A stretch of 64,000 bases of DNA from Candidatus Micrarchaeia archaeon (GCA_041649555.1 JBAZMS010000002.1:67898-131897); one strand, 5' to 3'; shown: positions 6,855 to 44,979, numbered from the stretch's first letter. Program-made: numbers and translations. Notes: generated from the sequence alone by a model not told the origin.

Positions 6855-7901
6855 TTAAATCCCCCTAATAAACTCCCCAAACAACTCCCTGCTATCATTT
6901 GGCCCAGGACAGCTTTCAGGATGAAACTGAACAGAAAATATAGGTTTAGAAATATGCCTCATCCCTTCATTACTATTATCCAATAGATTATAATGAGTAA
7001 CTTCAAAACAAGAAGGAACCTTGGAAACAGCAAACCCGTGATTTTGCGTAGTGATTAGAACCTTTTTCCTAAAACAATCATAAACAGGATGATTACTTCC
7101 CCTATGCCCAAACTTCAATTTATAAGTAGAACCTCCAAATGCATGGGCAATACACTGATGTCCAAGACAAATTCCAAACATAGGCAAATCACAAAGTTCT
7201 CTAATAACCTTATGGACATTTTTCAAAAGAGCAGGATCCCCCGGGCCATTTGAAATTACAACTCCGGAAGGATTAAACTTTCTAATCTCCTCGCTTGTAA
7301 AATTATATGGAACAGAAATAACTTCAATTCCTCTTTTATTCAATTCACGGATTATTCCCATCTTTACCCCTAAATCAATCAATACGACCTTCTTATTTCC
7401 ACTTCCAAACCTTTCAACTTTTGAAGTGCCAACCTTTGATACAAAATCAGTCAAAGAATATTCAAATTTCAAATTTTTAATTATCTTTTCAATATCAGGT
7501 TTTTCATTCTCATATACTGCAAGGCAGGATGAAACTACCCCAAATTCTCTTATTTTTTTGGTAATTTCACGGGTATCCACTCCAAAAATTCCTCCAACCC
7601 CAAAATCTTCCAAATACTTATCAAGGCCAGAAGAAAAATCCAACTCCCTTACAACAAACCCTGATACCCAAACCTTGGAACTCTCGCAATTCTTTATATC
7701 CAACCCATAATTTCCAATCAAAGGATAGGTTAAAGTTAAAATCTGCCCAGCATAGCTTGGATCAGTTAACGCTTCCTGATAGCCCTGCATTGAAGTATTA
7801 AACACTAATTCTCCAGTTCTAAAGCCAATTGCCCCAAATCCAGCCCCAAAAAATACACTTCCATCTGATAATATGAGAACCGCATTTTTATTCATAATCA
7901 T
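6855..7901 (-). CDS. carA: carbamoyl-phosphate synthase small (glutaminase) subunit
   Basis: CarA N-domain 'QGYQEALTDPSYAGQILTLTYPLIGNYG' and GATase 'GICLGHQ'. Start moved from the ORF-track value (8033) to ATG 7901 (MIMNKNAVL), which sits 4 nt downstream of a GGAGGT Shine-Dalgarno; 14-nt overlap with the carB stop. Confidence 0.8.
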   Translation of the reverse strand: MIMNKNAVLILSDGSVFFGAGFGAIGFRTGELVFNTSMQGYQEALTDPSYAGQILTLTYPLIGNYGLDIKNCESSKVWVSGFVVRELDFSSGLDKYLEDFGVGGIFGVDTREITKKIREFGVVSSCLAVYENEKPDIEKIIKNLKFEYSLTDFVSKVGTSKVERFGSGNKKVVLIDLGVKMGIIRELNKRGIEVISVPYNFTSEEIRKFNPSGVVISNGPGDPALLKNVHKVIRELCDLPMFGICLGHQCIAHAFGGSTYKLKFGHRGSNHPVYDCFRKKVLITTQNHGFAVSKVPSCFEVTHYNLLDNSNEGMRHISKPIFSVQFHPESCPGPNDSRELFGEFIRGI

Positions 7902-10900
7902 AAAACCTCCGTATCTCATATTCCTCTTTTGAATACTTTTCAATAGCTTCAACAAACTCAACAGCAGTGCGGATATTTGTAATGCATGGAATTCCAAATT
8001 CAATGCTTTTTCTTCGGATAATAAATCCGTCAATATAGCTTTCCTCTTCCTGCGAGGGAATATTAATCACCAGATCTATTTTTCCAAGGTCAATCAATTC
8101 AATTATATCATAGCTTTCTTTTTCATTTCCAAGCTTATTTACAATTCTGATCTCTCCAATTTCACGAAGTTCAAATGCAGTTCCAGGAGTTGCATATAAA
8201 ATAAATCCAAGGGAATGCAGTTTTCTTGCAATCTCCAAAACTTCTTTTCTGTCTTCTTTGCGGACAGTCAAAAGGACACAACCTTTGGAAGCAACACAAA
8301 TCCCACTTGATTTTAATGCCTTATAATACGCTGATTCAAAATCAGAGCCAATTCCCATGCTCTCTCCGGTGCTTTTCATTTCAGGGCCAAGTAAGATATC
8401 CTCTCCGGGAAGTTTAAGAAAAGGAAAAACAACCCCCTTTACTGCATAATGGGTTATTTTCCTTTCTTTTTCTAAAAGTTTTTCACCAAGCATTGATTCA
8501 ACAGCCAGTTTAACCAGGGAAATATCAATTGATTTGGAAAGAAAAGGAACAGTCCTGCTTGCCCGCGGGTTTGCCTCCAAAATATAAATTTCATTGTCCT
8601 TGACTGCAAACTGGATATTCAAAAATCCGGTTATTCCAAGGGAAAGTGAAATCTCCCGGGTATATTTTTTTATTTTCTCAACTATCTTATAGGATAAATT
8701 GAGGGAAGGAATTACAATATTTGCATCCCCTGAATGCACTCCTGCAAACTCAATGTGCTCCATTACTCCTCCAATGAATACATTAGAGCCGTCACATACT
8801 GCATCAACCTCGCATTCAATTGCATTATCAAGGTATTTATCAATTAATACAGGCTTATCTTCGCTTAGTTCAATTGCACTGTCAATATATTTTTCCAATT
8901 CCACTAAAGAAAACACAATCTGCATTCCGCGCCCTGCAATCACATAAGAAGGGCGCACAATTATTGGATAGCCAAGTTTTTGTGCAGCATCAAATGCCTC
9001 TTCTTTTTTTCTTACAGTAAGGCTTGGGGGCTGTTTTATTTTAAGCCTGTCCATCAAATCCTTGAATTTCTCCCTGTCCTCTGCAATGTCTATACTTTCA
9101 AAAGATGTTCCAAGTATTTTAACCCTGTCTTTTAATTTTTCAGCCAATTTAATTGAAGTCTGTCCTCCAAGCTGCACTATGACCCCTAATAAATTCTCAT
9201 CCAATTCATTCTCAATTATATTCAATACGCTCTCATAATCCAAAGGCTCAAAATATAATCTTGAACTCGAATCAAAATCAGTGCTTACTGTTTCAGGGTT
9301 ATTATTAATCATTACAGATTCAATTCCCATCTTCTTTAAGGCAAAGGAGGCCTGAGAGCAGCAATAGTCAAATTCTATTCCCTGTCCAATCCTTATAGGC
9401 CCTGATCCGATAATTATTACTTTTTTCTTTTTCAAAGAAACTGCCTCGTTTTCAGATTCATAAGTGGAATAAAAATAAGGGGTTATTGCCTCAAATTCTC
9501 CAGAACAGCTGTCAACCATTTTATATACCGGAATTATTCCAAAAGATTTCCTGAGATTTCTTATATTCTCTTCTGTTTTTCCCTTCAGGCTTGCAATTTT
9601 AAGATCACTAATCCCAAGTTTTTTATATTCAGATAGGTTTTCTTTTGTAAGAGTTTCATTTTCAATTTTTTTCTCGGTTAAAATCAGTTTTTCAATTCTT
9701 TTCAAAAACCATCTGTTTATTTTTGTAATAGAATAAATCTCCTCGATTGTTTTTCCATCCCTGAAGGCATCAAAGAGTGCAAATAAGCGGAGATTGGTTG
9801 CAGGCTCAAGATGTTTGATATAATCAAATTTAACAGGAATTTTAATCTCAAGCCCTGCCACTGCCTTTAAGAGAGCCTCTTCAAAACTTCTTCCAATTGC
9901 CATAACCTCTCCGGTACTTTTCATCTGTGTTCCAAGGGTTCTTTTTGCAGAAGAAAACTTGTCAAAAGGCCAGCGGGGAATTTTAACCGTTATATAATCA
10001 AGAGATGGTTCAAGCGAGGAGGTTTTTCCAATTATCGGATTTATGATCTCATTTAGGGTTTTTCCAATGGCAATTTTTGCTGCAATGCGCGCAATAGGAT
10101 ATCCAGTAGCTTTTGATGCAAGGGCAGAAGAACGGGAAAGGCGGGGATTTACTTCAATTACGCTGTATTCTCTAGTTTTCCTGTTATATGCAAACTGGAC
10201 ATTGCATGAACCTTGTATTTCAAGAGCCCGCACTATTTTAATTGAAGCATCACGAAATCTTTGGTGCTCTTTATCAGAAAGGGTTTGTGAAGGCGCAACA
10301 ACAATGCTTTCTCCTGTGTGTATTCCCATTGGGTCAAAATTTTCCATATTGCATATGACAATACAATTATCACCCGAATCCCTGACAATCTCATATTCAA
10401 ATTCCTCCCATCCTTTCACGCTTCTCTCAATTAAAACCTCATGATTCATACTAAGCTTGAATGCAACATCCAGCAGGTTTTTAAGTTCGGTTTCATTATT
10501 TGCAAATCCCCCTCCGCTTCCACCAAGGGTAAATGCAGGGCGCACAATTACAGGGTAATTTATTTTCTCGGCATAAGAATAAGCAGAAGAGTGGTCCTTA
10601 ACACTATAGCTTTCAAGTATTGGAATTCCGATTTCTTTCATCAGGGAATTAAATAATTCCCGGCTCTCGGCTTTTTCAATTGAGTTAAAATCAGTTCCAA
10701 TGAGCTTAACATTATATTTTTCAAGTATTCCCTTTTTTTCAAGCTCAACTGCAAGATTGAGTGCAGTCTGCCCTCCGCAGGTTGCAAGAATTGAATCTAT
10801 TCCCTCGTTTATGATTATTTTTTCAATTGTTTTAATATCCAGGGGCTCAATATAAACTGCATCAGCTGTTTGCCTGTCTGTTTGAATTGTTGCAGGGTTA

Positions 10901-11046
10901 GAATTCACCAAAACAACAAATACTTTTTCTTCCTTTAGTGCCCTGCATGCCTGTGTTCCTGAATAATCAAATTCTGCGCTTTGTCCGATTATAATCGGTC
11001 CGGAACCTATTACAAGAACTTTTTTTACATCAGGCATCAAAAACAC
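7888..11046 (-). CDS. carB: carbamoyl-phosphate synthase large subunit
   Basis: 1052 aa; duplicated ATP-grasp halves (VIGSGPIIIGQSAEFDYSG ... IIGSGPIRIGQGIEFDYC) and a C-terminal MGS-like domain. Confidence 0.9.
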   Translation of the reverse strand: MFLMPDVKKVLVIGSGPIIIGQSAEFDYSGTQACRALKEEKVFVVLVNSNPATIQTDRQTADAVYIEPLDIKTIEKIIINEGIDSILATCGGQTALNLAVELEKKGILEKYNVKLIGTDFNSIEKAESRELFNSLMKEIGIPILESYSVKDHSSAYSYAEKINYPVIVRPAFTLGGSGGGFANNETELKNLLDVAFKLSMNHEVLIERSVKGWEEFEYEIVRDSGDNCIVICNMENFDPMGIHTGESIVVAPSQTLSDKEHQRFRDASIKIVRALEIQGSCNVQFAYNRKTREYSVIEVNPRLSRSSALASKATGYPIARIAAKIAIGKTLNEIINPIIGKTSSLEPSLDYITVKIPRWPFDKFSSAKRTLGTQMKSTGEVMAIGRSFEEALLKAVAGLEIKIPVKFDYIKHLEPATNLRLFALFDAFRDGKTIEEIYSITKINRWFLKRIEKLILTEKKIENETLTKENLSEYKKLGISDLKIASLKGKTEENIRNLRKSFGIIPVYKMVDSCSGEFEAITPYFYSTYESENEAVSLKKKKVIIIGSGPIRIGQGIEFDYCCSQASFALKKMGIESVMINNNPETVSTDFDSSSRLYFEPLDYESVLNIIENELDENLLGVIVQLGGQTSIKLAEKLKDRVKILGTSFESIDIAEDREKFKDLMDRLKIKQPPSLTVRKKEEAFDAAQKLGYPIIVRPSYVIAGRGMQIVFSLVELEKYIDSAIELSEDKPVLIDKYLDNAIECEVDAVCDGSNVFIGGVMEHIEFAGVHSGDANIVIPSLNLSYKIVEKIKKYTREISLSLGITGFLNIQFAVKDNEIYILEANPRASRTVPFLSKSIDISLVKLAVESMLGEKLLEKERKITHYAVKGVVFPFLKLPGEDILLGPEMKSTGESMGIGSDFESAYYKALKSSGICVASKGCVLLTVRKEDRKEVLEIARKLHSLGFILYATPGTAFELREIGEIRIVNKLGNEKESYDIIELIDLGKIDLVINIPSQEEESYIDGFIIRRKSIEFGIPCITNIRTAVEFVEAIEKYSKEEYEIRRFYDYE

Positions 11047-11081
11047 TTTCGAGAATTAGAATTTTATATCAACTGAACTTA

Positions 11082-11128
11082 TTTATATATCTTTTGTTTC
11101 AATTAGAACAATAAAGTTGCAGGGGATA
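11082..11128. repeat. 47-bp direct repeat copy 1 (contains TTTATATA box)
   Basis: 'TTTATATATCTTTTGTTTCAATTAGAACAATAAAGTTGCAGGgGATA' identical (42/42 core) to 12647-12693. Confidence 0.8.
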
Positions 11129-11152: not shown

Positions 11153-11260
11153 AAAAAAGGTTATGAAAATAAAGGTTATAAAAATAACCTAAAATATTAA
11201 GAATATAAATATAATACCTAATAAAATAATAGATACCTTTAAAAAAGGTTATGAAAATAA
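11153..11260. promoter_or_regulatory. upstream region of the Arch_ATPase gene with two exact 20-nt direct repeats and a 7-bp-arm inverted repeat
   Basis: 'AAAAAAGGTTATGAAAATAA' at 11153-11172 and 11241-11260; 'AGGTTAT-AAAA-ATAACCT' at 11173-11190. Confidence 0.5.
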
Positions 11261-11267
11261 TCTTATT

Positions 11268-12641
11268 ATGAAATTCTACAACAGGGAAGCTGAAAAAAAG
11301 GCATTGGAAGATGCAATAAAAAAATCCCCGGCCCTAATTCTAATTAAAGGCAGAAGGAGAGTTGGAAAAACCGCCCTGATACTTAATTCAATAAAAGAAA
11401 ATGCAATCTATTTTTTTATAGACAATAAAAAAACTGAAAAAAATCTTTTATTTGAATTCGAAGAAATATTAAAAAAGGAGTTGAATCTTCCAAATTACAT
11501 AAAAATTGAAAAATGGGAGCATTTCTTTCAAATTATTTTTGAAAGCAAAAAAACAATTATACTAGACGAATTCCAGAGAATTCTGGGCATCTCCCCTTCT
11601 GCAATAAACCAACTGCAAAAATTCTGGGATTTGAATCCTCCAAAAAATGCCCTGATACTCTCCGGCTCAAATATAGGAATGATAAAAAAAATATTCATAA
11701 ATGAGGGTTCCCCACTATTTAAAAGAGCGACAATGGACATGACCTTAAAATCATTGGATTTTTCGGTATGCAAAAAAATACTAAAAGATCTTGGAATAAA
11801 AGATTTTGAAAACCAGTTTAAAATCTATTCAATTATAGGCGGGATTCCTTATTACTATAGTCTTTTGCAGAATGAAACTATAGAATCATGGAAGGATGTT
11901 GTAAAAATCATATTTCTCAATCCGTTTTCTCCGCTAAAAAATGAGGTAAATGATACATTAATAGAAGGTTTTGGAAAAGAGCATTTAAGTTATTATGCAG
12001 TATTAAATGCAATTGCCCTTGGAAAAACCACAAAAAAAGAAATCTCTGATTTTTCAGGAATATTGCCTTCTTCCATTTCCCCTTATTTATATGATTTGGG
12101 AAATCTTTTGGATATAATAGAATATGAAATTCCGATAACTGAAAAAAAACCGTGGAAAACAAAGCTTGGAAGATTTATTCTAAAGGATAATTTCTTCAGA
12201 TTTTGGTTTAAATTTATATTTAGGCATCAAAGTATTTATGAAAAAGCGAATTATTCATATTTATTTGAATTAATAGAAAAGGATTTTGATTCATTTTCAG
12301 GATTTTCATTTGAAAATGTTGCAAGGGAATTTATACTAAAATTAAACAATAAAAATAATCTTCCGGTTAAATTTGACAAAATCGGCAGATGGTGGGATAG
12401 AAAAGGTCAGGAAATAGACATGGTTCTAATTTCTGATAGGGATGATGCAATAATGCTTATTGAATGCAAATGGAAGGAAGATGCAAACCCGGAAATGATA
12501 TTGTCCTCTCTAATGGAAAAGGAAAAATTCCTAAACCATAAAAAGAAAAATGTTTTCTATGGAATTATTGCAAAAAGTTTTAAAAATAAAACAAAAAATG
12601 CAATAGTTTTTGATATTAATGATCTGGAAAAAAATTTATAA
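11268..12641 (+). CDS. archaeal ATPase (Arch_ATPase/AAA + DUF234-type C-terminus)
   Basis: Walker A 'GRRRVGKTAL', Walker B-like 'IILDEFQ', and a C-terminal 'IGRWWDRKGQEIDMVLI...LIECKWKE' DUF234 signature. Confidence 0.7.
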   Translation: MKFYNREAEKKALEDAIKKSPALILIKGRRRVGKTALILNSIKENAIYFFIDNKKTEKNLLFEFEEILKKELNLPNYIKIEKWEHFFQIIFESKKTIILDEFQRILGISPSAINQLQKFWDLNPPKNALILSGSNIGMIKKIFINEGSPLFKRATMDMTLKSLDFSVCKKILKDLGIKDFENQFKIYSIIGGIPYYYSLLQNETIESWKDVVKIIFLNPFSPLKNEVNDTLIEGFGKEHLSYYAVLNAIALGKTTKKEISDFSGILPSSISPYLYDLGNLLDIIEYEIPITEKKPWKTKLGRFILKDNFFRFWFKFIFRHQSIYEKANYSYLFELIEKDFDSFSGFSFENVAREFILKLNNKNNLPVKFDKIGRWWDRKGQEIDMVLISDRDDAIMLIECKWKEDANPEMILSSLMEKEKFLNHKKKNVFYGIIAKSFKNKTKNAIVFDINDLEKNL

Positions 12642-12646
12642 TTTCT

Positions 12647-12693
12647 TTATATATCTTTTGTTTCAATTAGAACAATAAAGTTGCAGGAGATAC
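12647..12693. repeat. 47-bp direct repeat copy 2 = promoter of the downstream ACT-domain gene
   Basis: Same sequence as 11082-11128; its TTTATATA box is ~25 nt upstream of the inferred transcription start and the gene starts at 12697. Confidence 0.8.
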
Positions 12694-12696
12694 AAA

Positions 12697-13299
12697 ATGA
12701 AAAAGGAAAATATTTCAAATCTAATTTCTTTATATGTGAAAAGAAGGCCATTCATAAAAGAATCACTAAGAGATGGAATAATAAACTACAGCTCACTTGC
12801 ACGAAAAATTTCCTATGAGCTATATGGCAATCATTCAAAAACAGGAGCAATAAAAGTTGCACTTCAAAGATTATCAAAAAAACTAATCGAAAAGGAAGAG
12901 GATTTAGAGCAAAAGATTTTAGCAGTTCTAAAAAACAGCTCATTGGATATAAAAAATAAGATTGCAGTGGTCATTTCTTCATCAGAGTTAAATATAAAAC
13001 CCATTTCGTATGCAAAAAGCGATTTATCAGTAACTTATATATTAAAAGAAGAGCAGCTTTTGGATCTTAAAAAAGAAAGAAAAATAAAAGCAGTGGAAAA
13101 AAATCTGAATCTGATAACAATTAAAAGCAGGGAGGAATTGGAAAATACCCCGGGGGTTTTATCAATGATTCTTGGAGCATTGGCAATTGAAGGAATAAAT
13201 ATACAAGAAATCATCTCCTGCTACACTGATACATTAATAGTTGTAAAAGAATCAGATACTTCAAGGGCTTATGATATCCTTAATGCACTGCTAAAGTAA
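12697..13299 (+). CDS. ACT-domain-containing protein
   Basis: C-terminal ~70 aa 'LITIKSREELENTPGVLSMILGALAIEGINIQEI...LIVVKESDTSRAYDILNALL' has the ACT beta-alpha-beta-beta-alpha-beta pattern. Confidence 0.5.
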   Translation: MKKENISNLISLYVKRRPFIKESLRDGIINYSSLARKISYELYGNHSKTGAIKVALQRLSKKLIEKEEDLEQKILAVLKNSSLDIKNKIAVVISSSELNIKPISYAKSDLSVTYILKEEQLLDLKKERKIKAVEKNLNLITIKSREELENTPGVLSMILGALAIEGINIQEIISCYTDTLIVVKESDTSRAYDILNALLK

Positions 13300-38354: not shown

Positions 38355-41162
38355 ATGTCTGAATTAAAAAAAGTAAGCGATGCAATATGGAAAATTGAAA
38401 AAGAGGAAAGTATGAATGTCCCTGCATATGTTTTTGGAACAGAAAGAATAGTCCAGAAAATGAAGGGAGATAAGACATTTATCCAATTAAAAAATGCAGC
38501 GTCCCTTCCAGGAATAATTGATCGGGCCTGCGTTATGCCCGATGGCCATGAAGGATATGGTTTTCCAATTGGAGGAGTTGCAGCCTTTGATGCAAATGAG
38601 GGAATTGTTTCCCCCGGAGGCATAGGGTATGATATTAACTGCCTTCATCCAGATTCAAAAATTTTAACTTCCCTTGGCTATACAAAAAAAATAAAAGAGT
38701 TTGAAAATGATTTTTCCTTTATGGTCCAGACAAATGGAACAATTCTAATGCATGGAAAATCTTCCCTATGCACTGGAAATTTAAATCGAAATGCAATTTC
38801 ATTTATGTATAAACAATATGAAGGAATTCTTTACTCTGTTTCAACTCTTTCAAATGCAGTTTCTCTAACTCCTGACCATCCAATATTTACTATAAATGGA
38901 AAAAAACTTCCAGATCAATTAAAAGAGGGCGATTTAATCCTGGTATATCCTTTCGAAGGAGTTCAATATTCCCCACTTGATGGAAATGAAGAAGAAATTG
39001 CAAGATATGCAAAATTACTTGGATATTTGACTGGAGACGGAACCCTGACTTATTGTGGAAAAAAGTTGAGAGTAACTTTTTTTGGAAAGGAAAAAGATCT
39101 TGAAAAAATAAAAGAGGATGTAACTTTTTTAGGTTATCATTCCCATTTGCGTACAAGAACAAGAAAACATAAAATAAATGAAAAAGAATTTATTTCAACT
39201 AATTCAGAGCTTCATGTGTATTCTGATGAATTTGCAAAAAAACTGCTCGAACTTGAAGCTCCACTCGGAAATAAGACAAAAACCATTTTTAGAATTCCAA
39301 ACTGGATAAGGCAATCTCCATTATGGATAAAAAGATTATATCTTGCATCTCTTTTTGGAGCAGAGCTTTCTAGTCCAAAAACCTCTTCAAAAACCGGATT
39401 TTATATGCCTATTTTAAGTATGAACAAGGAAGAAAAATTAGAAGAAAATTTAAGGGGGTTTTTTCTTGATTTAACAGAGCTTCTCAAGGAATTTTCAGTA
39501 GAGGTTTCAAAAATTGCCTTTGTTGAAAAAATAAAAGATAAGATAAGATTAAGATTGGAAATTGATGGAACTGAAGAAAATATTGAAAATTTATATTCAA
39601 AAATAGGTTTTGAGTATAATGAAGATAGGCTGTTTCTTGGGCTTTGCACGATTTTATATATAAGATATAAGAGGCAATATCGAGATAAAAGAGAAGAAAT
39701 AAGGGCAAAGGTAGTTGAATATAAATCAAAAGGGTTTTCCTTAAAGGAACTTCAAAAAAGATTCTCTGGAAAATGGGCAAACAATAGATTTATCGAAAGA
39801 GCATATTATGAAAATAAAAGTGCTAGAGCTCCATTGTCAATTAAAAGTTTTAATGATTTTGCAGCCAAACAAAAAGAATATTATTCTTCCTTTGGTGCAT
39901 TAGCCTCGCCTATTTTAGATATTTCAAAAACTAATTATTCTGGAAAGGTTTTTGATTTTACTATAGAAGGAGTTCATAAATTTATTGCACAGCAAATAGT
40001 AGTTTCAAATTGCGGCGTCAGGCTGTTAACAACTAATTTAACCGAAGACCAAGTCCGCCCAAAAATAAAAGAATTATGCGATAAATTATTCAAAAATGTT
40101 CCTTCAGGAGTTGGTTCAGAAAGCAAACTAAAAATCTCTCATGAAGAACTAGACAGTGCAGTAGAGCTTGGAATTGATTGGGCAATAGAAAAAGGATATG
40201 GCAGGAAAGAAGATAAACAGAGAACAGAAGAATATGGAAGAATGATTGGAGCTGATGCAACAGCAGTATCTCCTACTGCAAAAAAAAGAGGAAAAACACA
40301 ATTTGGAACGCTTGGTGCGGGAAATCATTTTTTAGAAATTCAAAAAATAGAAAAAATACATGATGAAAATTCTGCAAAATCATTTGGTCTTGAAGAAGGA
40401 AAAATTGCAGTAATGATTCATTGCGGTTCTAGAGGCTATGGCCATCAAATCTGTTCTGATGCCCTTCCAATACTTTTAACTTATGCAAGGAAAAATAATA
40501 TTTCACTTCCTGATCCAGAATTAGTTTATGCTCCAATACAAAGTGAGGAAGGACAAAAATACCTAAAAGGAATGCAATGCGGTGTAAATTATGCATTCAT
40601 AAACAGGCATGTAATTATGCACTGGGTAAGAGAAACCTTTGATGAGGTATTTGGAAAAGGAACTTCTGATTCAATGAATCTTGTATACGATGTTGCGCAT
40701 AATATCGCAAAATTTGAAAAACACCTTGTTAATGGAAAAACCCAAGAATTATTGGTGCATAGAAAAGGAGCAACAAGGGCATTTCCAAAAGGAAGGGAAG
40801 AATTGCCCATTGAATATCGCTCAATCGGACAGCCGGTTTTAATTCCAGGTTCAATGGGAACTGCAAGCTATGTTTTAGTTGGAGAGGAAAAAGGCCTTGA
40901 GGTTTCCTGGGGTTCAACCTGCCATGGTGCAGGAAGAGTGATGAGCAGGGGGGAGGCAATAAGGTCTTTTAGGGGAGATAAATTAAGAGATGAACTCTGG
41001 AACCAAAATAAAATATATGTTCGCGCAACTAACCCCAAAGTAATTGCAGAAGAGGCTCCAAATGCTTATAAGGATGTTGATGAAGTAGTTGAGAGCGTTG
41101 TAAAGGCAGGGATAAGCAAAATTACTGCAAGAATGAAACCTATAGGGGTAGTTAAAGGATAA
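38355..41162 (+). CDS. rtcB: tRNA-splicing ligase RtcB, interrupted by an intein
   Basis: Exteins: 'MPDGHEGYGFPIGGVAAF', 'GGIGYDIN|C...N|CGVRLLTT', 'GAGNHFLEIQ', 'HCGSRGYGHQ', 'HNIA', 'HRKGATRA' (metal/GMP site residues). 935 aa minus a 457-aa intein = 478 aa, the usual RtcB size. Confidence 0.85.
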   Translation: MSELKKVSDAIWKIEKEESMNVPAYVFGTERIVQKMKGDKTFIQLKNAASLPGIIDRACVMPDGHEGYGFPIGGVAAFDANEGIVSPGGIGYDINCLHPDSKILTSLGYTKKIKEFENDFSFMVQTNGTILMHGKSSLCTGNLNRNAISFMYKQYEGILYSVSTLSNAVSLTPDHPIFTINGKKLPDQLKEGDLILVYPFEGVQYSPLDGNEEEIARYAKLLGYLTGDGTLTYCGKKLRVTFFGKEKDLEKIKEDVTFLGYHSHLRTRTRKHKINEKEFISTNSELHVYSDEFAKKLLELEAPLGNKTKTIFRIPNWIRQSPLWIKRLYLASLFGAELSSPKTSSKTGFYMPILSMNKEEKLEENLRGFFLDLTELLKEFSVEVSKIAFVEKIKDKIRLRLEIDGTEENIENLYSKIGFEYNEDRLFLGLCTILYIRYKRQYRDKREEIRAKVVEYKSKGFSLKELQKRFSGKWANNRFIERAYYENKSARAPLSIKSFNDFAAKQKEYYSSFGALASPILDISKTNYSGKVFDFTIEGVHKFIAQQIVVSNCGVRLLTTNLTEDQVRPKIKELCDKLFKNVPSGVGSESKLKISHEELDSAVELGIDWAIEKGYGRKEDKQRTEEYGRMIGADATAVSPTAKKRGKTQFGTLGAGNHFLEIQKIEKIHDENSAKSFGLEEGKIAVMIHCGSRGYGHQICSDALPILLTYARKNNISLPDPELVYAPIQSEEGQKYLKGMQCGVNYAFINRHVIMHWVRETFDEVFGKGTSDSMNLVYDVAHNIAKFEKHLVNGKTQELLVHRKGATRAFPKGREELPIEYRSIGQPVLIPGSMGTASYVLVGEEKGLEVSWGSTCHGAGRVMSRGEAIRSFRGDKLRDELWNQNKIYVRATNPKVIAEEAPNAYKDVDEVVESVVKAGISKITARMKPIGVVKG
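38640..40010 (+). mobile_element. intein with LAGLIDADG homing-endonuclease domain inside rtcB
   Basis: Begins with Cys (CLHPDSKILTSLGY) right after the extein 'GYDIN'. Two LAGLIDADG-type motifs ('LLGYLTGDGTL', 'LYLASLFGAELS'). Ends '...VVSN' followed by extein 'CGVRL'. Confidence 0.75.
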
Positions 41163-41175
41163 TGTAATTCCTGTT

Positions 41176-42141
41176 TTATTTTTTAATTAAATAATTATAT
41201 CCAGGTGTCCATTCATCAGTTCTAAGAATTACTGAATCTATCGTATTTATTACATTTGGAAATTTTTCCTTTAATTTTTTAATTATTCCATAGTATTCAT
41301 CATAATTTTTAATCACGAATTCAAGTTCTATTCTCCAAATATTTCTTATAAAATATTGGATTTGAGGTATTTGGCTGCAATATTCCAATAACATCTTTTC
41401 CTCCTCTTTGGTATAACTGTCAATTTTGATCATTGCCTTATAATGTTCAAGATTTAGTTTTATCAAATCAATTTGGACTCTATATTGGAGTATTATCTCT
41501 AATTTTTCCATCCTTTTTATTTTTGAAATTACAGTTGTAGGGTTTGTTGAGGCATATCTTGCTATCTCCACTGTAGAACTTCTTGCATTGGAAATGAGAT
41601 ACTCTAATATTTTTTGATCTGTTTTATCTAATTTATTCTGGATAATTTTACCTGCAAATTCTACAGGTTTACATAGCTCATTATTAAAATACATTTTTGG
41701 ATATTGCTTAACATCTAAAAGCCAGTCTCCATAAAAATCAATAATTATGTCTTTAAATTCAGAAATAATCTTATTTTTTAAATCATAAAAAACATAAATA
41801 TCATCTGAATATGCTGCAAATATAAGATCCCATGAGCCGTCGCATTCTCCCATCCAGTATATATTTATAAATTTTCTAAGAGAATCGATAAGAACTTCTT
41901 TTCTGTTTGGAATATTTTTTAATTTAATATATACTTTAAATAACTGAAAACCCATTTTATTTGGATTTATTGAGGTTGTAAATCCAGTGAGTATCCCATT
42001 TTTTATGAGCTGATTTATTCTATATGCAACTGTTTGTCTTGAACGGCGTATTTTTTTGCCAAGTTCACTATCTGAAATTCTGCAATTTTTATCTAATTCA
42101 CTTAAGATTTGTTTGTCGATTTTATCGAGTTTATATTCCAT
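41176..42141 (-). CDS. tandem Lrp/AsnC-type transcriptional regulator (two HTH + RAM modules)
   Basis: 'DKIDKQILSELDKNCRISDSELGKKIRRSRQTVAYRINQLIKNGIL' and a second copy 'DKTDQKILEYLISNARSSTVEIARYASTNPTTVISKIKRMEKL'. ATG at 42141 (MEYKL) preferred over the GTG at 42150. Confidence 0.6.
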   Translation of the reverse strand: MEYKLDKIDKQILSELDKNCRISDSELGKKIRRSRQTVAYRINQLIKNGILTGFTTSINPNKMGFQLFKVYIKLKNIPNRKEVLIDSLRKFINIYWMGECDGSWDLIFAAYSDDIYVFYDLKNKIISEFKDIIIDFYGDWLLDVKQYPKMYFNNELCKPVEFAGKIIQNKLDKTDQKILEYLISNARSSTVEIARYASTNPTTVISKIKRMEKLEIILQYRVQIDLIKLNLEHYKAMIKIDSYTKEEEKMLLEYCSQIPQIQYFIRNIWRIELEFVIKNYDEYYGIIKKLKEKFPNVINTIDSVILRTDEWTPGYNYLIKK

Positions 42142-42250
42142 AAATATCACTTATATTTAGCATTTTAAAAGAAAAAGTATTAAAATAGTATGTTTTTGCA
42201 AAAAATTGAAAGATATATTTAATATATTTCTAATGTTCTAATAGATGTGG
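42114..42250. repeat. bidirectional promoter region, copy A (Lrp <-> radical SAM)
   Basis: ~130-nt segment ~90% identical to 43513-43650, including the first 9 codons of the Lrp gene on the minus strand. Confidence 0.75.
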
Positions 42251-42257
42251 TGATAAT

Positions 42258-43433
42258 ATGAAAAGGATGGTATTACCTCAAAATGTTGAAAAGGTGTTTT
42301 CGGGAAAAATGCCTAACGGTTTTATTAACAATGTAAATGGCTGGTTTTTTACCAAAAGGGAGGTAAAACAAGCAGCAAAGAAAGGTAAATTGCTAACCTT
42401 AGATGTGGATATGAGTGGTAAAGGAATATGTTCACTCAAATGCCCTCATTGCTTTAGAAGATCAAATGAATTTTTAAAAATGAAAGTGCGTGATTTTGTA
42501 AGTTATGATGAGTTACTTGTAAGAATTGATGAAGCAAGAAAACTTGGTCTTAAATCTGTAAAATTAATTGGCCCAGGAGAGCCTTTAGAGGATCCAAACT
42601 TCATAAAACTTTTAATTGCCTTAAGAAAAAGGAATATAACCCCCATAGTGTTTACTAAATCATATATTCTTGGAGATGATTCTCTTTGCCAAAAACTTCA
42701 TGGAATGGATGGAAAGACAATGATTAAACTTTTAAAAGAATTGGATGTGAGTATTTTATTTGGCGTAACTTCTTTTAATTCTGAATATGAAGATGGGGTA
42801 GTCGGCAGAATTGGATTTCATAAAGCAAGAGAAGAAGCAATAAGAAGACTTTGTGAGGCAGGATTTAATGAATTTGTTCCAGGACAGGCAACAAGACTTG
42901 CAATGGTATTTAATCCAATAACCCCTTATAATATAAACGAAATTTATGATGCTTATGTGTGGGCAAGAGAGAGAAATATACATCCAATATCATCCCCAAC
43001 AATGGTTGCAGGAAAAGGACTTGATACAATATCTTCCATACTTCCAGATAAAGATAAGTTGATTGACCTTTATGTTAAAATAAACCTTTGGGCAATAGAA
43101 CATGAAGTTTATACCCTTAGTGATATTAAAAAATATGGAGTAGCATCCTATGTTGGGGGCCACTGGTGCAATCAGATCTCAGTTGGAATGTTTATGAGAG
43201 GAGATGGAATAGTTCTTAGATGCCCTGGTGATGATATAACCATCCAAGGAGATATTAATGAACAATCTTTGACTCAAATATGGAACAATAGTGAAAACAA
43301 AAGAAAATACGCAGGCCAGTTTAACAATGGGTGTCCTCCAAAAGATGGACAGAATAGTACTGGTGCAAGATCTTTTCCGGAAGGGTTTTTTGTCGAAGTT
43401 AAAAGACGCATATTGGATTATTTTAAAAGGTAA
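42258..43433 (+). CDS. radical SAM enzyme with C-terminal Cys-rich (SPASM/twitch-like) region
   Basis: 'CSLKCPHC' (Cx3Cx2C), 'LIGPGEPLEDPNF' (GGEPL-like), C-terminal Cys in 'GHWCNQ', 'LRCPGDD', 'NNGCPP'. Confidence 0.7.
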   Translation: MKRMVLPQNVEKVFSGKMPNGFINNVNGWFFTKREVKQAAKKGKLLTLDVDMSGKGICSLKCPHCFRRSNEFLKMKVRDFVSYDELLVRIDEARKLGLKSVKLIGPGEPLEDPNFIKLLIALRKRNITPIVFTKSYILGDDSLCQKLHGMDGKTMIKLLKELDVSILFGVTSFNSEYEDGVVGRIGFHKAREEAIRRLCEAGFNEFVPGQATRLAMVFNPITPYNINEIYDAYVWARERNIHPISSPTMVAGKGLDTISSILPDKDKLIDLYVKINLWAIEHEVYTLSDIKKYGVASYVGGHWCNQISVGMFMRGDGIVLRCPGDDITIQGDINEQSLTQIWNNSENKRKYAGQFNNGCPPKDGQNSTGARSFPEGFFVEVKRRILDYFKR

Positions 43434-43512
43434 ATCCTTTTATCACCAAAATAGCTAAACCCCCTTTCTTTAGAAGGGGGATTGCTATTATATTTTATGT
43501 CTACTTATTATC

Positions 43513-43650
43513 TGTCGATTTTATCGAGTTTGTATTCCATAAATATCACATATATTTGGCATTTTAAAAGAAAAAGTATTAAAATATTATGTTTTTGCAA
43601 AAAATTAAAGAGAATATTTAATATATAAGTTCTGTTCTAATGTTATATAA
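43513..43650. repeat. bidirectional promoter region, copy B (upstream of the 439-aa gene), carrying a truncated Lrp 5' fragment
   Basis: Minus strand reads ATG GAA TAC AAA CTC GAT AAA ATC GAC AGA TAA (MEYKLDKIDR*), a truncated duplicate of the Lrp start. 'AAGGTGGTAAA' Shine-Dalgarno before ATG 43660. Confidence 0.75.
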
Positions 43651-43659
43651 GGTGGTAAA

Positions 43660-44979
43660 ATGTCAAATTTAGAAGGTTATTTAAATAATGTGGATGGTGT
43701 TACTAAACAAGCGATCCAGAAAAAAGTATTAACAAGAATGGATCTTAAAGGAGAGAATAGATTCTATAATTCTATAGAAGCGAAAACTAAGATTAGATTG
43801 TTTGATACATTAGTTTATCTCTTACATTACTATTCAGGGTCTGATGAGGAAACAGTTAAACAGAACACATTACAAAAGTTAATTGAATTTTGTGTGAATC
43901 ATGGAGCATTTTTCAATTTGTTAGAACTATCTGATGATAAAGAGTTACCTCCTATTGTAAGAGAAGCATTTAAGAATAATATGGCAAATGCAATTTTACA
44001 TTTTATTAAAAACCACCATTTTTCTCTTTATGAAATAGTATATATATCCAAAAGTGAGAACTTTCATCCATTAATAAGACAAGTTGCTATGGATAACTTA
44101 AATGATTCAGCCCTATATCATATTGAAAATGGAGCTAGCGTGATTGATCTAATAAGCATAGCTAATGATACCAAAATGTTTTCTCCATCTGTTAGAAATA
44201 TTGCTTCTGATGATATAAAAATTAGGACAAAGTATTATATAGAACATACAGTAAAAGAAAAAAACTGGCCTGGTGCTGACTCCTTTATCAAAAGCTTTAA
44301 TACTCTTTCGAAAAATCAAATTTCTTTATCTGTGTTGCAAGACGATCAATATCATAAGTTGATTGAAGAATTAATATGTGGGGTTTTTTCTATTGAGTAT
44401 AACGAATATAGAAAGGATAGTTCTAATGGGAATTTTGCTATTATATTTGTAAATATAGTAATTTTGTTATTCCAAGCAATACCTGAAAATTTCTATGAAT
44501 CTGTTTCACAGAAATTTTTTGAAGTAATGAAACGGAATCCTACGATCGTATATATGTTAACAAATGATGAGGCTCTCCCACTATCTTTACGCGAATTTTT
44601 TGGATCTAAATACTTAGATTTGATCGAAAATAATTCGCATGATAAAATAAAATTCTGTAATAAAATGGTTAAAATATGTAATAGTGAAAATTCCCCTTCA
44701 TCAATGAGAATATATGCTGGAAAACAATATGTGTGTGCCCTTTTAGATACTTATATGCACCCGGAGGATCTTTTACTTAAATTAATTAAAAATGAAAAAA
44801 CTTTAGGAGAGGTAAGAGTGTTTGCCCAAATAAAATTGAATCAGATCTTTAAAAAAGTAATTGATGAATTAAAATTAAATGAAAGAAATCCTCTTGAAAG
44901 GGACGGAATTATAAGTAAACCTAAATTTAGATTTATAAAAAAACTAGTCAAACCTTTTAGGCGTCTAGTTAAAACATAA
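43660..44979 (+). CDS. hypothetical alpha-helical protein (439 aa)
   Basis: No motif recognised; driven by the duplicated promoter. Confidence 0.3.
   Translation: MSNLEGYLNNVDGVTKQAIQKKVLTRMDLKGENRFYNSIEAKTKIRLFDTLVYLLHYYSGSDEETVKQNTLQKLIEFCVNHGAFFNLLELSDDKELPPIVREAFKNNMANAILHFIKNHHFSLYEIVYISKSENFHPLIRQVAMDNLNDSALYHIENGASVIDLISIANDTKMFSPSVRNIASDDIKIRTKYYIEHTVKEKNWPGADSFIKSFNTLSKNQISLSVLQDDQYHKLIEELICGVFSIEYNEYRKDSSNGNFAIIFVNIVILLFQAIPENFYESVSQKFFEVMKRNPTIVYMLTNDEALPLSLREFFGSKYLDLIENNSHDKIKFCNKMVKICNSENSPSSMRIYAGKQYVCALLDTYMHPEDLLLKLIKNEKTLGEVRVFAQIKLNQIFKKVIDELKLNERNPLERDGIISKPKFRFIKKLVKPFRRLVKT

What the first reader, a model, noticed from the sequence alone, without database searches (positions are those of the whole stretch)
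42114..43650. Duplicated ~130-bp bidirectional promoter, including the first 9 codons of the Lrp gene, bracketing the radical-SAM gene
Copy A (42114-42250) is the real Lrp/radical-SAM divergent promoter. Copy B (43513-43650) sits between the radical-SAM stop and the 439-aa gene and still encodes 'MEYKLDKIDR*' on the minus strand. Either the radical-SAM gene (with promoter) was inserted into the Lrp leader, or a tandem duplication occurred. Both downstream genes now carry the same probable Lrp operator and core promoter. This is the same promoter-duplication style as at 11082/12647.
Basis: seen in the sequence. Interest (0 to 1): 0.6.

Follow-up and report, generated by a model that had tools for sequence, protein, structure and literature searches.

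The report
Duplicated promoter brackets a radical-SAM gene
In a tiny uncultured archaeon, a ~130-base control region (with the first 9 codons of its regulator gene) is present twice, either side of a radical-SAM gene; the closest relative has one copy and no radical-SAM gene, so this is an ordinary but clean example of a gene gained or lost together with a copy of a promoter.

Summary
Copy A (42114-42242) and copy B (43513-43641) are direct repeats 1,399 bp apart, 88% identical ungapped and 90.8% gapped (E=3e-46). No third copy lies in the 64-kb window. Copy B keeps a dead start of the regulator gene, MEYKLDKIDR**.

The repeat is the divergent control region of a fused double Lrp/AsnC gene and a radical-SAM/SPASM gene. 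That gene pair is found at 60 of 113 related DPANN loci. Four motif blocks, including the palindrome TTTTTGCAAAAA, are identical in A and B and are conserved in relatives.

The closest relative (Lrp 83% identical) has RtcB, Lrp, one control region, a homologue of the 439-aa gene, then the amidohydrolase gene. It lacks exactly the 1.4-kb unit of one repeat plus the radical-SAM gene.

So the unit was gained or lost by recombination at the repeat. I favour gain, but the direction is unresolved. Each downstream gene now has its own copy of the same promoter.

The same kind of duplication recurs at this locus in at least six other DPANN genomes (7/100 loci against 1.4% of control windows).

This is a new member of a known kind (promoter propagation; an indel flanked by direct repeats). 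Regulation by Lrp is inferred, not shown. The genome-wide copy number could not be tested.

The parts
41176..42141 (-). Gene for a 321-aa fused double Lrp/AsnC-type protein (two HTH + ligand-domain modules)
   Evidence: Pfam finds HTH_AsnC-type twice. In a PDB profile search, each half matches full-length Lrp/AsnC regulators. The protein is widespread in DPANN archaea.
42114..42242 (.). Repeat copy A: Lrp codons 1-9 (42114-42141) plus about 100 nt of the Lrp/radical-SAM intergenic control region
42163..42226 (.). Four conserved motif blocks in copy A: TTTTAAAAG 42163-42171, GTATTAAAATA 42177-42187, palindrome TTTTTGCAAAAA 42193-42204, TATA-like TTTAATATA 42218-42226
   Evidence: Coordinates. 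The blocks are identical in copy B. The columns TTTT.GC..A and TTTA.TAT are invariant across 8 sequences from 7 genomes.
42258..43433 (+). Radical-SAM/SPASM gene (391 aa), preceded by GGTGAT at 42249-42254
   Evidence: Pfam Radical_SAM and SPASM. Homologues at 45-67% identity in Micrarchaeota.
43451..43488 (+). G+C-rich hairpin followed by a U-rich run, 18 nt after the radical-SAM stop codon; terminator-like
   Evidence: Fold of 43425-43520: -24 kcal/mol, z=-3.35. Coordinates.
43513..43641 (.). Repeat copy B: dead Lrp start (43513-43540, reads MEYKLDKIDR** on the minus strand) plus the same control region, with motif blocks at 43562-43570, 43576-43586, 43592-43603 and 43617-43625
43660..44979 (+). 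Gene for a 439-aa lineage-specific all-helical protein, preceded by GGTGGT at 43651-43656
   Evidence: The protein is the only hit to itself among 5.8 billion proteins. The 402-aa protein of L002 is a distant homologue (24% identity, E=2.5e-15). The AF2 model is all-helical with pLDDT 57.

Best explanation
**What is shown**
- The repeat is a local, two-copy duplication of a compact divergent control region. That region normally sits between a fused double-Lrp gene and a radical-SAM gene in DPANN archaea.
- The duplicated piece R runs from Lrp codon 9 to about 15 nt before the radical-SAM start codon.
- R plus the radical-SAM gene plus its terminator hairpin form a 1,399-bp unit flanked by R copies.
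- The closest sequenced relative carries the same neighbourhood with one R and without this unit.

**What is inferred**
- The unit was most likely added in this lineage by a single crossover (Campbell-type) between the resident R of an 'Lrp <-R-> 439-aa gene' site and a circularised fragment 'Lrp 5' end - R - radical-SAM'. The fragment would come from a related genome that has the usual Lrp<->radical-SAM arrangement. Such an event automatically leaves one R on each side of the insert and a dead Lrp stub on the downstream copy.
- The hairpin stops radical-SAM transcripts. The 439-aa gene is then transcribed from copy B, which keeps every conserved box and the T5GCA5 palindrome. The radical-SAM gene and the 439-aa gene would therefore be driven in parallel by identical promoters and probably respond to the same regulator, the neighbouring double-Lrp protein.
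- The two repeats also make the radical-SAM unit excisable by recombination.
For: **The repeat and its stub.**

**R is a conserved control region, not junk.**
- Four blocks are shared with relatives whose Lrp is only 64-68% identical.
- All four blocks are identical in A and B.
- The exact palindrome occurs only at these two places in the 64 kb.

**A terminator-like hairpin lies between the radical-SAM gene and copy B.**

**Empty site.**
- L002 (GCA_964559795.1; Lrp 83% and RtcB 93% identical) reads RtcB / Lrp / one R / 402-aa homologue of the 439-aa gene / amidohydrolase.
- Its R aligns to copy A on the left flank and to copy B on the right flank.

**Timing.**
- Among sites where A, B and L002 differ, A=B against L002 is the largest class (about 11, against about 5 and about 4-5).
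- With five outgroups, the only clean shared-derived change unites A and B: Lrp codon 3, T instead of C.
- The non-coding stub in B differs from A at 1 of 28 positions, against 3-4 of 28 for L002.

**Analogous loci.**
- In L053, only -17..+56 of the Lrp start is repeated around an inserted HEAT-repeat gene, and the two promoters proper are dissimilar.
- In L140, an Lrp stub of at least 75 nt accompanies the copy in front of the radical-SAM gene.
- These structures are what insertion with repeat formation leaves behind. A copy made for its promoter function would not look like this.
Against: - The Lrp<->radical-SAM pair is the common and probably ancestral arrangement: 36/61 and 24/52 loci, and 7 of 9 loci with Lrp at least 64% identical. 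By gene order alone, loss in L002 is the more parsimonious story.
- A-B identity (115/132) is only a little above A-L002 (109/130) and B-L002 (109/132). The region is constrained, so the dating is weak. Gene conversion between A and B would mimic a young duplication.
- No donor, circular form or closer relative is available. No radical-SAM protein above 67% identity exists in the protein collection.
- The radical-SAM gene shows no compositional oddity (GC3 0.23 against 0.21-0.28 for its neighbours).
- Promoter activity and Lrp binding are untested. A-B mismatches are only non-significantly depleted in columns conserved across relatives (p=0.12).
Confidence: 0.45

Rival explanations
1. The duplication is older than the split from the closest relative. 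The common ancestor already had Lrp <-R-> radical-SAM - R' -> 439-aa gene. The L002 lineage then lost the 1.4-kb unit by recombination between the two repeats (pop-out). A and B have stayed similar through constraint or gene conversion.
For: - Lrp<->radical-SAM is the prevailing arrangement in DPANN. Loss in L002 needs fewer changes of gene order.
- The L002 site is exactly what a repeat-by-repeat deletion leaves.
- Identity among A, B and L002 is nearly equal at 83-87%.
- No radical-SAM orthologue of L002's genome turns up in the protein collection.
Against: - L002 matches A and B at interleaved sites, with no single switch point.
- A=B against L002 is the largest class of sites. If the duplication predated the split, it should be the joint smallest (my rough binomial estimate is about p=0.04 on the counts).
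- The one polarised shared change joins A with B.
- The neutral stub in B is almost identical to A.
Confidence: 0.3
2. A tandem duplication of the whole unit (R plus the radical-SAM gene) occurred. Most of the second radical-SAM copy was then deleted, fusing its first codons to the 439-aa gene.
For: - The best BLASTP segment between the two proteins joins their N-termini: GFINNVNGW... against GYLNNVDG..., E=0.088.
- Restricted to the N-termini, only 4 of 5,000 shuffles reach that score. This restriction was chosen after seeing the hit.
- In L028, the second copy does include the first about 5 codons of the radical-SAM gene.
Against: - The similarity is not significant for the whole proteins and is absent at the nucleotide level.
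- The L002 orthologue lacks the motif.
- The model needs an extra in-frame deletion.
- It does not explain why L002 has R directly in front of the orthologous gene.
Confidence: 0.08
3. R is a multi-copy mobile promoter-bearing element (MITE-like or carried by a transposon or virus). It happens to have two copies here.
For: Promoter-bearing repeats of this kind are known (PMC3488235). A second bracketing repeat of different sequence lies in the same window.
Against: - No third copy in the 64 kb.
- No terminal inverted repeats at the edges.
- No transposase or integrase in the unit.
- No match in viral contigs or plasmids.
- Nothing in Rfam.
- R is orthologous to the single-copy Lrp control region of other genomes.
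Confidence: 0.04
4. Assembly artefact or chance similarity of AT-rich DNA.
For: The window is 32% G+C and comes from a metagenome-assembled genome.
Against: - E=3.5e-46.
- The copies differ at 12-17 positions.
- An independent Logan contig is identical across both copies.
Confidence: 0.02

Closest known systems
Putative mobile promoters / promoter propagation in prokaryotes (Matus-Garcia, Nijveen and van Passel 2012, PMC3488235)
   Same: Upstream regions that align over at least 50 nt at 80% identity or more, in front of non-homologous genes. 'Random duplications mediated by recombination' is one of the routes proposed.
   Different: - Only two copies, 1.4 kb apart.
- An archaeal bidirectional promoter.
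- The copy drags a stub of the neighbouring gene.
- An empty-site relative is available.
- The same orthologous promoter is duplicated repeatedly in different genomes.
Campbell-type single-crossover integration and its reversal (pop-in/pop-out); my own knowledge
   Same: The insert is flanked by direct repeats of the homologous segment. The alternative allele has one copy and no insert.
   Different: No integrase, att site, vector or donor is identified. The homologous segment is a promoter plus a gene start. The direction of the event is unresolved.
Autoregulated Lrp/AsnC genes transcribed divergently from their target (E. coli asnC-asnA; archaeal LrpA, Ss-LrpB, Ptr2); my own knowledge
   Same: An Lrp-type gene shares a short AT-rich control region with a divergent gene. 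That region contains a palindrome lying upstream of TATA-like boxes.
   Different: The protein is a fusion of two complete Lrp modules. No binding or expression data exist. The control region is present twice.
Siroheme decarboxylase NirDL/AhbAB with radical-SAM partners NirJ/AhbC/AhbD; my own knowledge
   Same: A doubled Lrp-fold protein is encoded next to a radical-SAM/SPASM enzyme.
   Different: The profile search of solved structures returns Lrp/AsnC regulators only. NCBIfam matches to NirJ models are far below their cut-offs.

Membership tests
Putative mobile promoter (PMP) pair | Upstream regions align over more than 50 nt at 80% identity or more | tested here: met
   134 nt at 88% identity, or 130 columns at 90.8%. 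Criterion taken from PMC3488235.
Putative mobile promoter (PMP) pair | The downstream coding sequences are not homologous | tested here: met
   Radical-SAM protein against the 439-aa protein: best BLASTP E=0.088.
Putative mobile promoter (PMP) pair | The sequence acts as a promoter | not testable with these tools
   Only conserved TATA-like boxes and their position are available.
Single-crossover (Campbell-type) insertion or deletion | The insert is flanked by direct repeats of the recombining segment | tested here: met
Single-crossover (Campbell-type) insertion or deletion | A related genome has one repeat copy and lacks exactly the insert | tested here: met
   L002: flanks collinear, single R, no radical-SAM gene.
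Single-crossover (Campbell-type) insertion or deletion | A donor or circular intermediate exists | not testable with these tools
   No reads are available. No closer radical-SAM homologue than 67% identity.
Transposon, IS or MITE with target-site duplication | A transposase gene or terminal inverted repeats, plus a short duplication of 2-15 bp | tested here: not met
   The unit encodes only the radical-SAM protein. No inverted repeats lie at the edges. The repeat is about 130 nt long.
Simple tandem duplication | The whole unit is repeated head to tail | tested here: not met
   Homology ends at or just before the start codons. The downstream genes are unrelated.
Lrp/AsnC (feast/famine) transcription regulator | An AsnC-type HTH followed by a ligand-binding domain | tested here: met
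   Pfam HTH_AsnC-type twice. Residues 5-149 and 175-310 each align to full-length Lrp/AsnC structures.
Lrp/AsnC (feast/famine) transcription regulator | Binds the shared control region | not testable with these tools
   The palindrome TTTTTGCAAAAA is conserved, but there are no binding data.
Known structured RNA (riboswitch or leader) | A match to an Rfam model | tested here: not met
   No match at E of 1 or below in 41800-44000.

The most novel reading that the evidence does not exclude
The highly conserved start of the double-Lrp gene and its control region may serve DPANN archaea as a recurrent homology anchor. Through it, genes would be added one after another by recombination without an integrase, each arriving with or receiving its own copy of the promoter. 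A cis-linked regulon under one regulator would grow and shrink in this way.
Probability: 0.15. Interest if true: 0.65.

Novelty: new member of a known kind. Interest (0 to 1): 0.4.

Why it matters
This is a clean natural example of how a gene and a ready-made promoter travel together. It has both the filled and the empty site, and it occurs in a group of archaea (DPANN) whose gene regulation and genome dynamics are almost unstudied.

It also exposes a widely conserved gene pair of unknown role: a double-Lrp gene and a radical-SAM gene. Their shared control region is duplicated about five times more often than other sequence at the same loci.

If that tendency reflects recombination anchored on the conserved regulator gene, it would be a simple route of gene gain in organisms with few mobile elements.

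Tried and rejected
- **Genome-wide copy count.** Exact-pattern scans for the repeat core found nothing in the genome collection or in metagenome contigs. This organism's contig is not held there, so the count could not be made. The viral scan and plasmid blastn were also empty.
- **Exact look-up of the radical-SAM protein.** It returned nothing, although the same contig was found through the 439-aa protein.
- **The 439-aa protein.** It has no Pfam or NCBIfam family. The single-sequence AF2 model is weak (pLDDT 57). Its Foldseek matches are HEAT/ARM solenoids, but at E above 0.001 and TM about 0.2. I therefore do not claim the fold. hhalign against the HEAT-repeat protein inserted in L053 was negative.
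- **Test for selection on copy B.** Mismatches against cross-species conservation gave p=0.12, not significant.
- **The palindrome as a wider regulon motif.** It shows no enrichment in the window (6 matches against 5.3 expected).
- **An RNA element.** The long hairpin predicted for the intergenic plus strand (z=-3.5 for A and -2.2 for B) pairs the two gene-proximal ends. I read it as mirror symmetry of a two-way promoter, not as an RNA element. This reading is untested.
- **Siroheme-decarboxylase-like enzyme pair.** Considered and not supported.
- **First recurrence control script.** It timed out and was rerun in faster form.

Full report
**1.

The window contains a two-copy direct repeat at 42109-42242 and 43508-43641. 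It is 134 nt long, 88% identical without gaps, and the copies are 1,399 bp apart. blastn aligns 42114-42242 with 43513-43641 at 90.8% identity over 130 columns, E=3.5e-46. The next best hit anywhere in the 64 kb is 36 nt at E=0.003.

The left edge is sharp: TGTCGATTTTATCGAG at 42114 and 43513. On the right, clear homology stops at 42242/43641. A weaker, gapped resemblance continues to the GGTG-type ribosome-binding sites and start codons of both downstream genes.

On the minus strand, copy B reads MEYKLDKIDR**. The intact gene reads MEYKLDKIDKQI....

A Logan assembly contig (L001) is 100% identical over 16.1 kb and includes both copies.

**2. The genes**

- 41176-42141 (minus strand) encodes a 321-aa protein with two AsnC-type HTH domains. 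Each half aligns to full-length Lrp/AsnC regulators of known structure. It is therefore a fusion of two complete Lrp modules.
- 42258-43433 encodes a radical-SAM/SPASM protein. It has no close solved relative.
- 43660-44979 encodes a 439-aa protein with no family assignment. It is the only hit to itself among 5.8 billion proteins. NCBI names it as a protein of a Candidatus Micrarchaeia MAG.
- RtcB lies to the left and an amidohydrolase gene to the right.

**3. The repeat is a conserved control region**

I compared the Lrp/divergent-gene spacers of relatives whose Lrp is 64-83% identical. They share four blocks: TTTTAAAAG, GTATT(T)AAA, TTTTTGC(A/C)AA and TTTAATATA. The columns TTTT.GC..A and TTTA.TAT are invariant in all eight sequences.

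All four blocks are identical in copies A and B. The exact palindrome TTTTTGCAAAAA occurs in the window only at 42193 and 43592.

TTTTAAAA is centred 26 nt before the Lrp ATG. TTTAATATA starts 40 nt (A) or 43 nt (B) before the downstream ATG. Which TATA-like box serves which gene cannot be decided from sequence.

A G+C-rich hairpin with a U-run (43451-43488, z=-3.35) follows the radical-SAM stop codon. The 439-aa gene therefore plausibly needs its own promoter, which copy B supplies. This step is inferred.

**4. An empty site exists**

The closest relative in all collections is contig CAZLIX010000058.1 of GCA_964559795.1 (L002). Its Lrp is 83% identical and its RtcB 93% identical.

Its gene order is RtcB / Lrp / one control region / a 402-aa gene / amidohydrolase, with no radical-SAM gene. 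The 402-aa protein is a distant homologue of the 439-aa protein (24% identity over nearly the full length, E=2.5e-15).

The DNA of L002 is collinear with the window up to 42229 (83.7% identity). It is collinear again from 43513 on (82% identity). Its single control region therefore aligns to both copies.

The difference between the two genomes is exactly one repeat plus the radical-SAM gene and its hairpin: 1,399 bp.

**5. Gain or loss**

The Lrp<->radical-SAM divergent pair is the usual arrangement:

| Set of loci | Loci with the pair |
|---|---|
| Genome loci | 36 of 61 |
| Metagenome loci | 24 of 52 |
| Loci with Lrp at least 64% identical | 7 of 9 |

By gene order, loss in L002 (pop-out between the repeats) is the simpler story. 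The sequence of the repeats points the other way, though weakly:

- L002 matches A and B at interleaved sites. A=B against L002 is the largest class.
- With five outgroups, the only clean shared-derived change unites A and B. This is T for C in Lrp codon 3.
- The stub in B, which has no coding role, differs from A at 1 of 28 positions. L002 differs at 3-4 of 28.
- Against this, overall identities are close (115/132, 109/130, 109/132). The region is constrained, and gene conversion would give the same picture.

I put gain by a single crossover at 0.45 and ancient duplication with loss in L002 at 0.30.

**6. The same thing happens elsewhere**

I searched each related locus for a second copy of its own Lrp-upstream region. 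Independent cases were found:

| Locus | Arrangement | Similarity of the copies |
|---|---|---|
| L118 | Lrp <-P-> radical-SAM - P' -> next gene (as in the window) | 86% over 74 nt |
| L028 | Lrp <-P-> radical-SAM - P' -> next gene; P' includes the first about 5 radical-SAM codons | 76% over 114 nt |
| L053 | A HEAT-repeat gene lies between the Lrp gene and a stub-bearing copy in front of the radical-SAM gene; only -17..+56 of the Lrp start is repeated | 81% over 74 nt |
| L140 | A 179-aa gene inserted; Lrp stub of at least 75 nt | 70% over 166 nt |
| L142/L145 | Two genes inserted | 78% over 109 nt |
| L104 | Three copies with paralogous genes | about 77% over 108-113 nt |

In 100 de-duplicated loci, the Lrp-upstream window has a second local copy in 7. 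The rate for control windows is 55 of 3,870 (odds ratio 5.2, p=8e-4).

The variable edges lie in either flanking gene. This argues for independent recombination events, not for one mobile element. L053 and L140 look like by-products of insertion, not like copies made for their promoter activity.

**7. Alternatives set aside**

- There is no transposase, integrase or terminal inverted repeat.
- There is no Rfam family.
- There is no match in viral contigs or plasmids.
- A plain tandem duplication does not fit, because only the control region is repeated.
- A faint N-terminal resemblance between the radical-SAM protein and the 439-aa protein (E=0.088) keeps alive a 'duplication then fusion' variant, at low probability.
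- The genome-wide copy number could not be checked.

**8. Comparison and verdict**

The pair meets the published operational definition of a propagated promoter: at least 50 nt at 80% identity or more, before non-homologous genes (PMC3488235). Structurally it is what a single-crossover insertion or its reversal leaves behind.

It is a new member of a known kind. Two things make it more than routine: the filled-site/empty-site pair, and the recurrence at one conserved DPANN locus.

Control by the double-Lrp protein, promoter activity of copy B and the direction of the event are all inferences.

Noticed in passing
window 11076-11128 and 12640-12692: A second bracketing repeat (53 nt, 94% identical, spacing 1,564). 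It encloses a single gene for an archaeal ATPase (ATPase_2 + DUF234, 11268-12641). That gene sits between carB (7888-11037, minus strand) and an ACT-domain gene (12697-13299). The right-hand copy carries the TATA-like box and the ribosome-binding site of the ACT-domain gene. This is the same signature of insertion plus repeat.
   Followed up: partly
window 11153-11172 and 11241-11260: AAAAAAGGTTATGAAAATAA occurs twice in the 140-nt AT-rich leader of the inserted ATPase gene (read).
   Followed up: no
window 41176-43433; loci L003-L158: The fused double-Lrp gene and a divergent radical-SAM/SPASM gene form a pair conserved across Micrarchaeota, Woesearchaeota, Pacearchaeota and Nanoarchaeota (60 of 113 loci). 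Its function is unknown. The layout recalls NirDL/AhbAB with NirJ/AhbC/AhbD, but sequence tests do not support that.
   Followed up: partly
window 43660-44979 and L002 2524-3732: The 439-aa protein evolves very fast. It is 24-29% identical to its positional orthologue, while the neighbouring Lrp is 83%, RtcB 93% and the amidohydrolase 54% identical. It is all-helical, with repeated xxVRxxA-like segments. The solenoid fold is only hinted at.
   Followed up: partly
window 42318-42407 and 43675-43746: N-terminal resemblance between the radical-SAM protein (GFINNVNGW...KQAAKKGKLLTLDV) and the 439-aa protein (GYLNNVDG...KQAIQKKVLTRMDL). E=0.088 for the whole proteins; 4 of 5,000 shuffles when restricted to the N-termini after the fact. 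It may be a remnant of a longer duplication, or chance.
   Followed up: partly
window 43513-43570, minus strand: Copy B keeps the Lrp-side TATA-like box, the start codon and 10 codons, ending in a double stop. The copy faces the hairpin at 43451-43488. It could give a short antisense RNA or a 10-aa peptide. This is untested.
   Followed up: no
window 42142-42260: The intergenic plus strand folds into one long imperfect hairpin (-23.1 kcal/mol, z=-3.5). Copy B folds less well (z=-2.2). The fold pairs the two gene-proximal ends (ATATCAC with GTGGTGAT). I interpret this as mirror symmetry of the two-way promoter.
   Followed up: partly
window 38355-41162: The RtcB RNA ligase gene is interrupted by an intein: 935 aa, with precomputed Pfam annotation RtcB / Intein_splicing / RtcB on the identical contig.
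   Followed up: no
L053 5028-5909: In a 1.57-Mb Micrarchaeota chromosome (OY970229.1), the gene inserted between the Lrp gene and the radical-SAM gene encodes a HEAT-repeat protein (HEAT_2, E=2e-31). It overlaps the decayed Lrp stub at its 3' end.
   Followed up: partly
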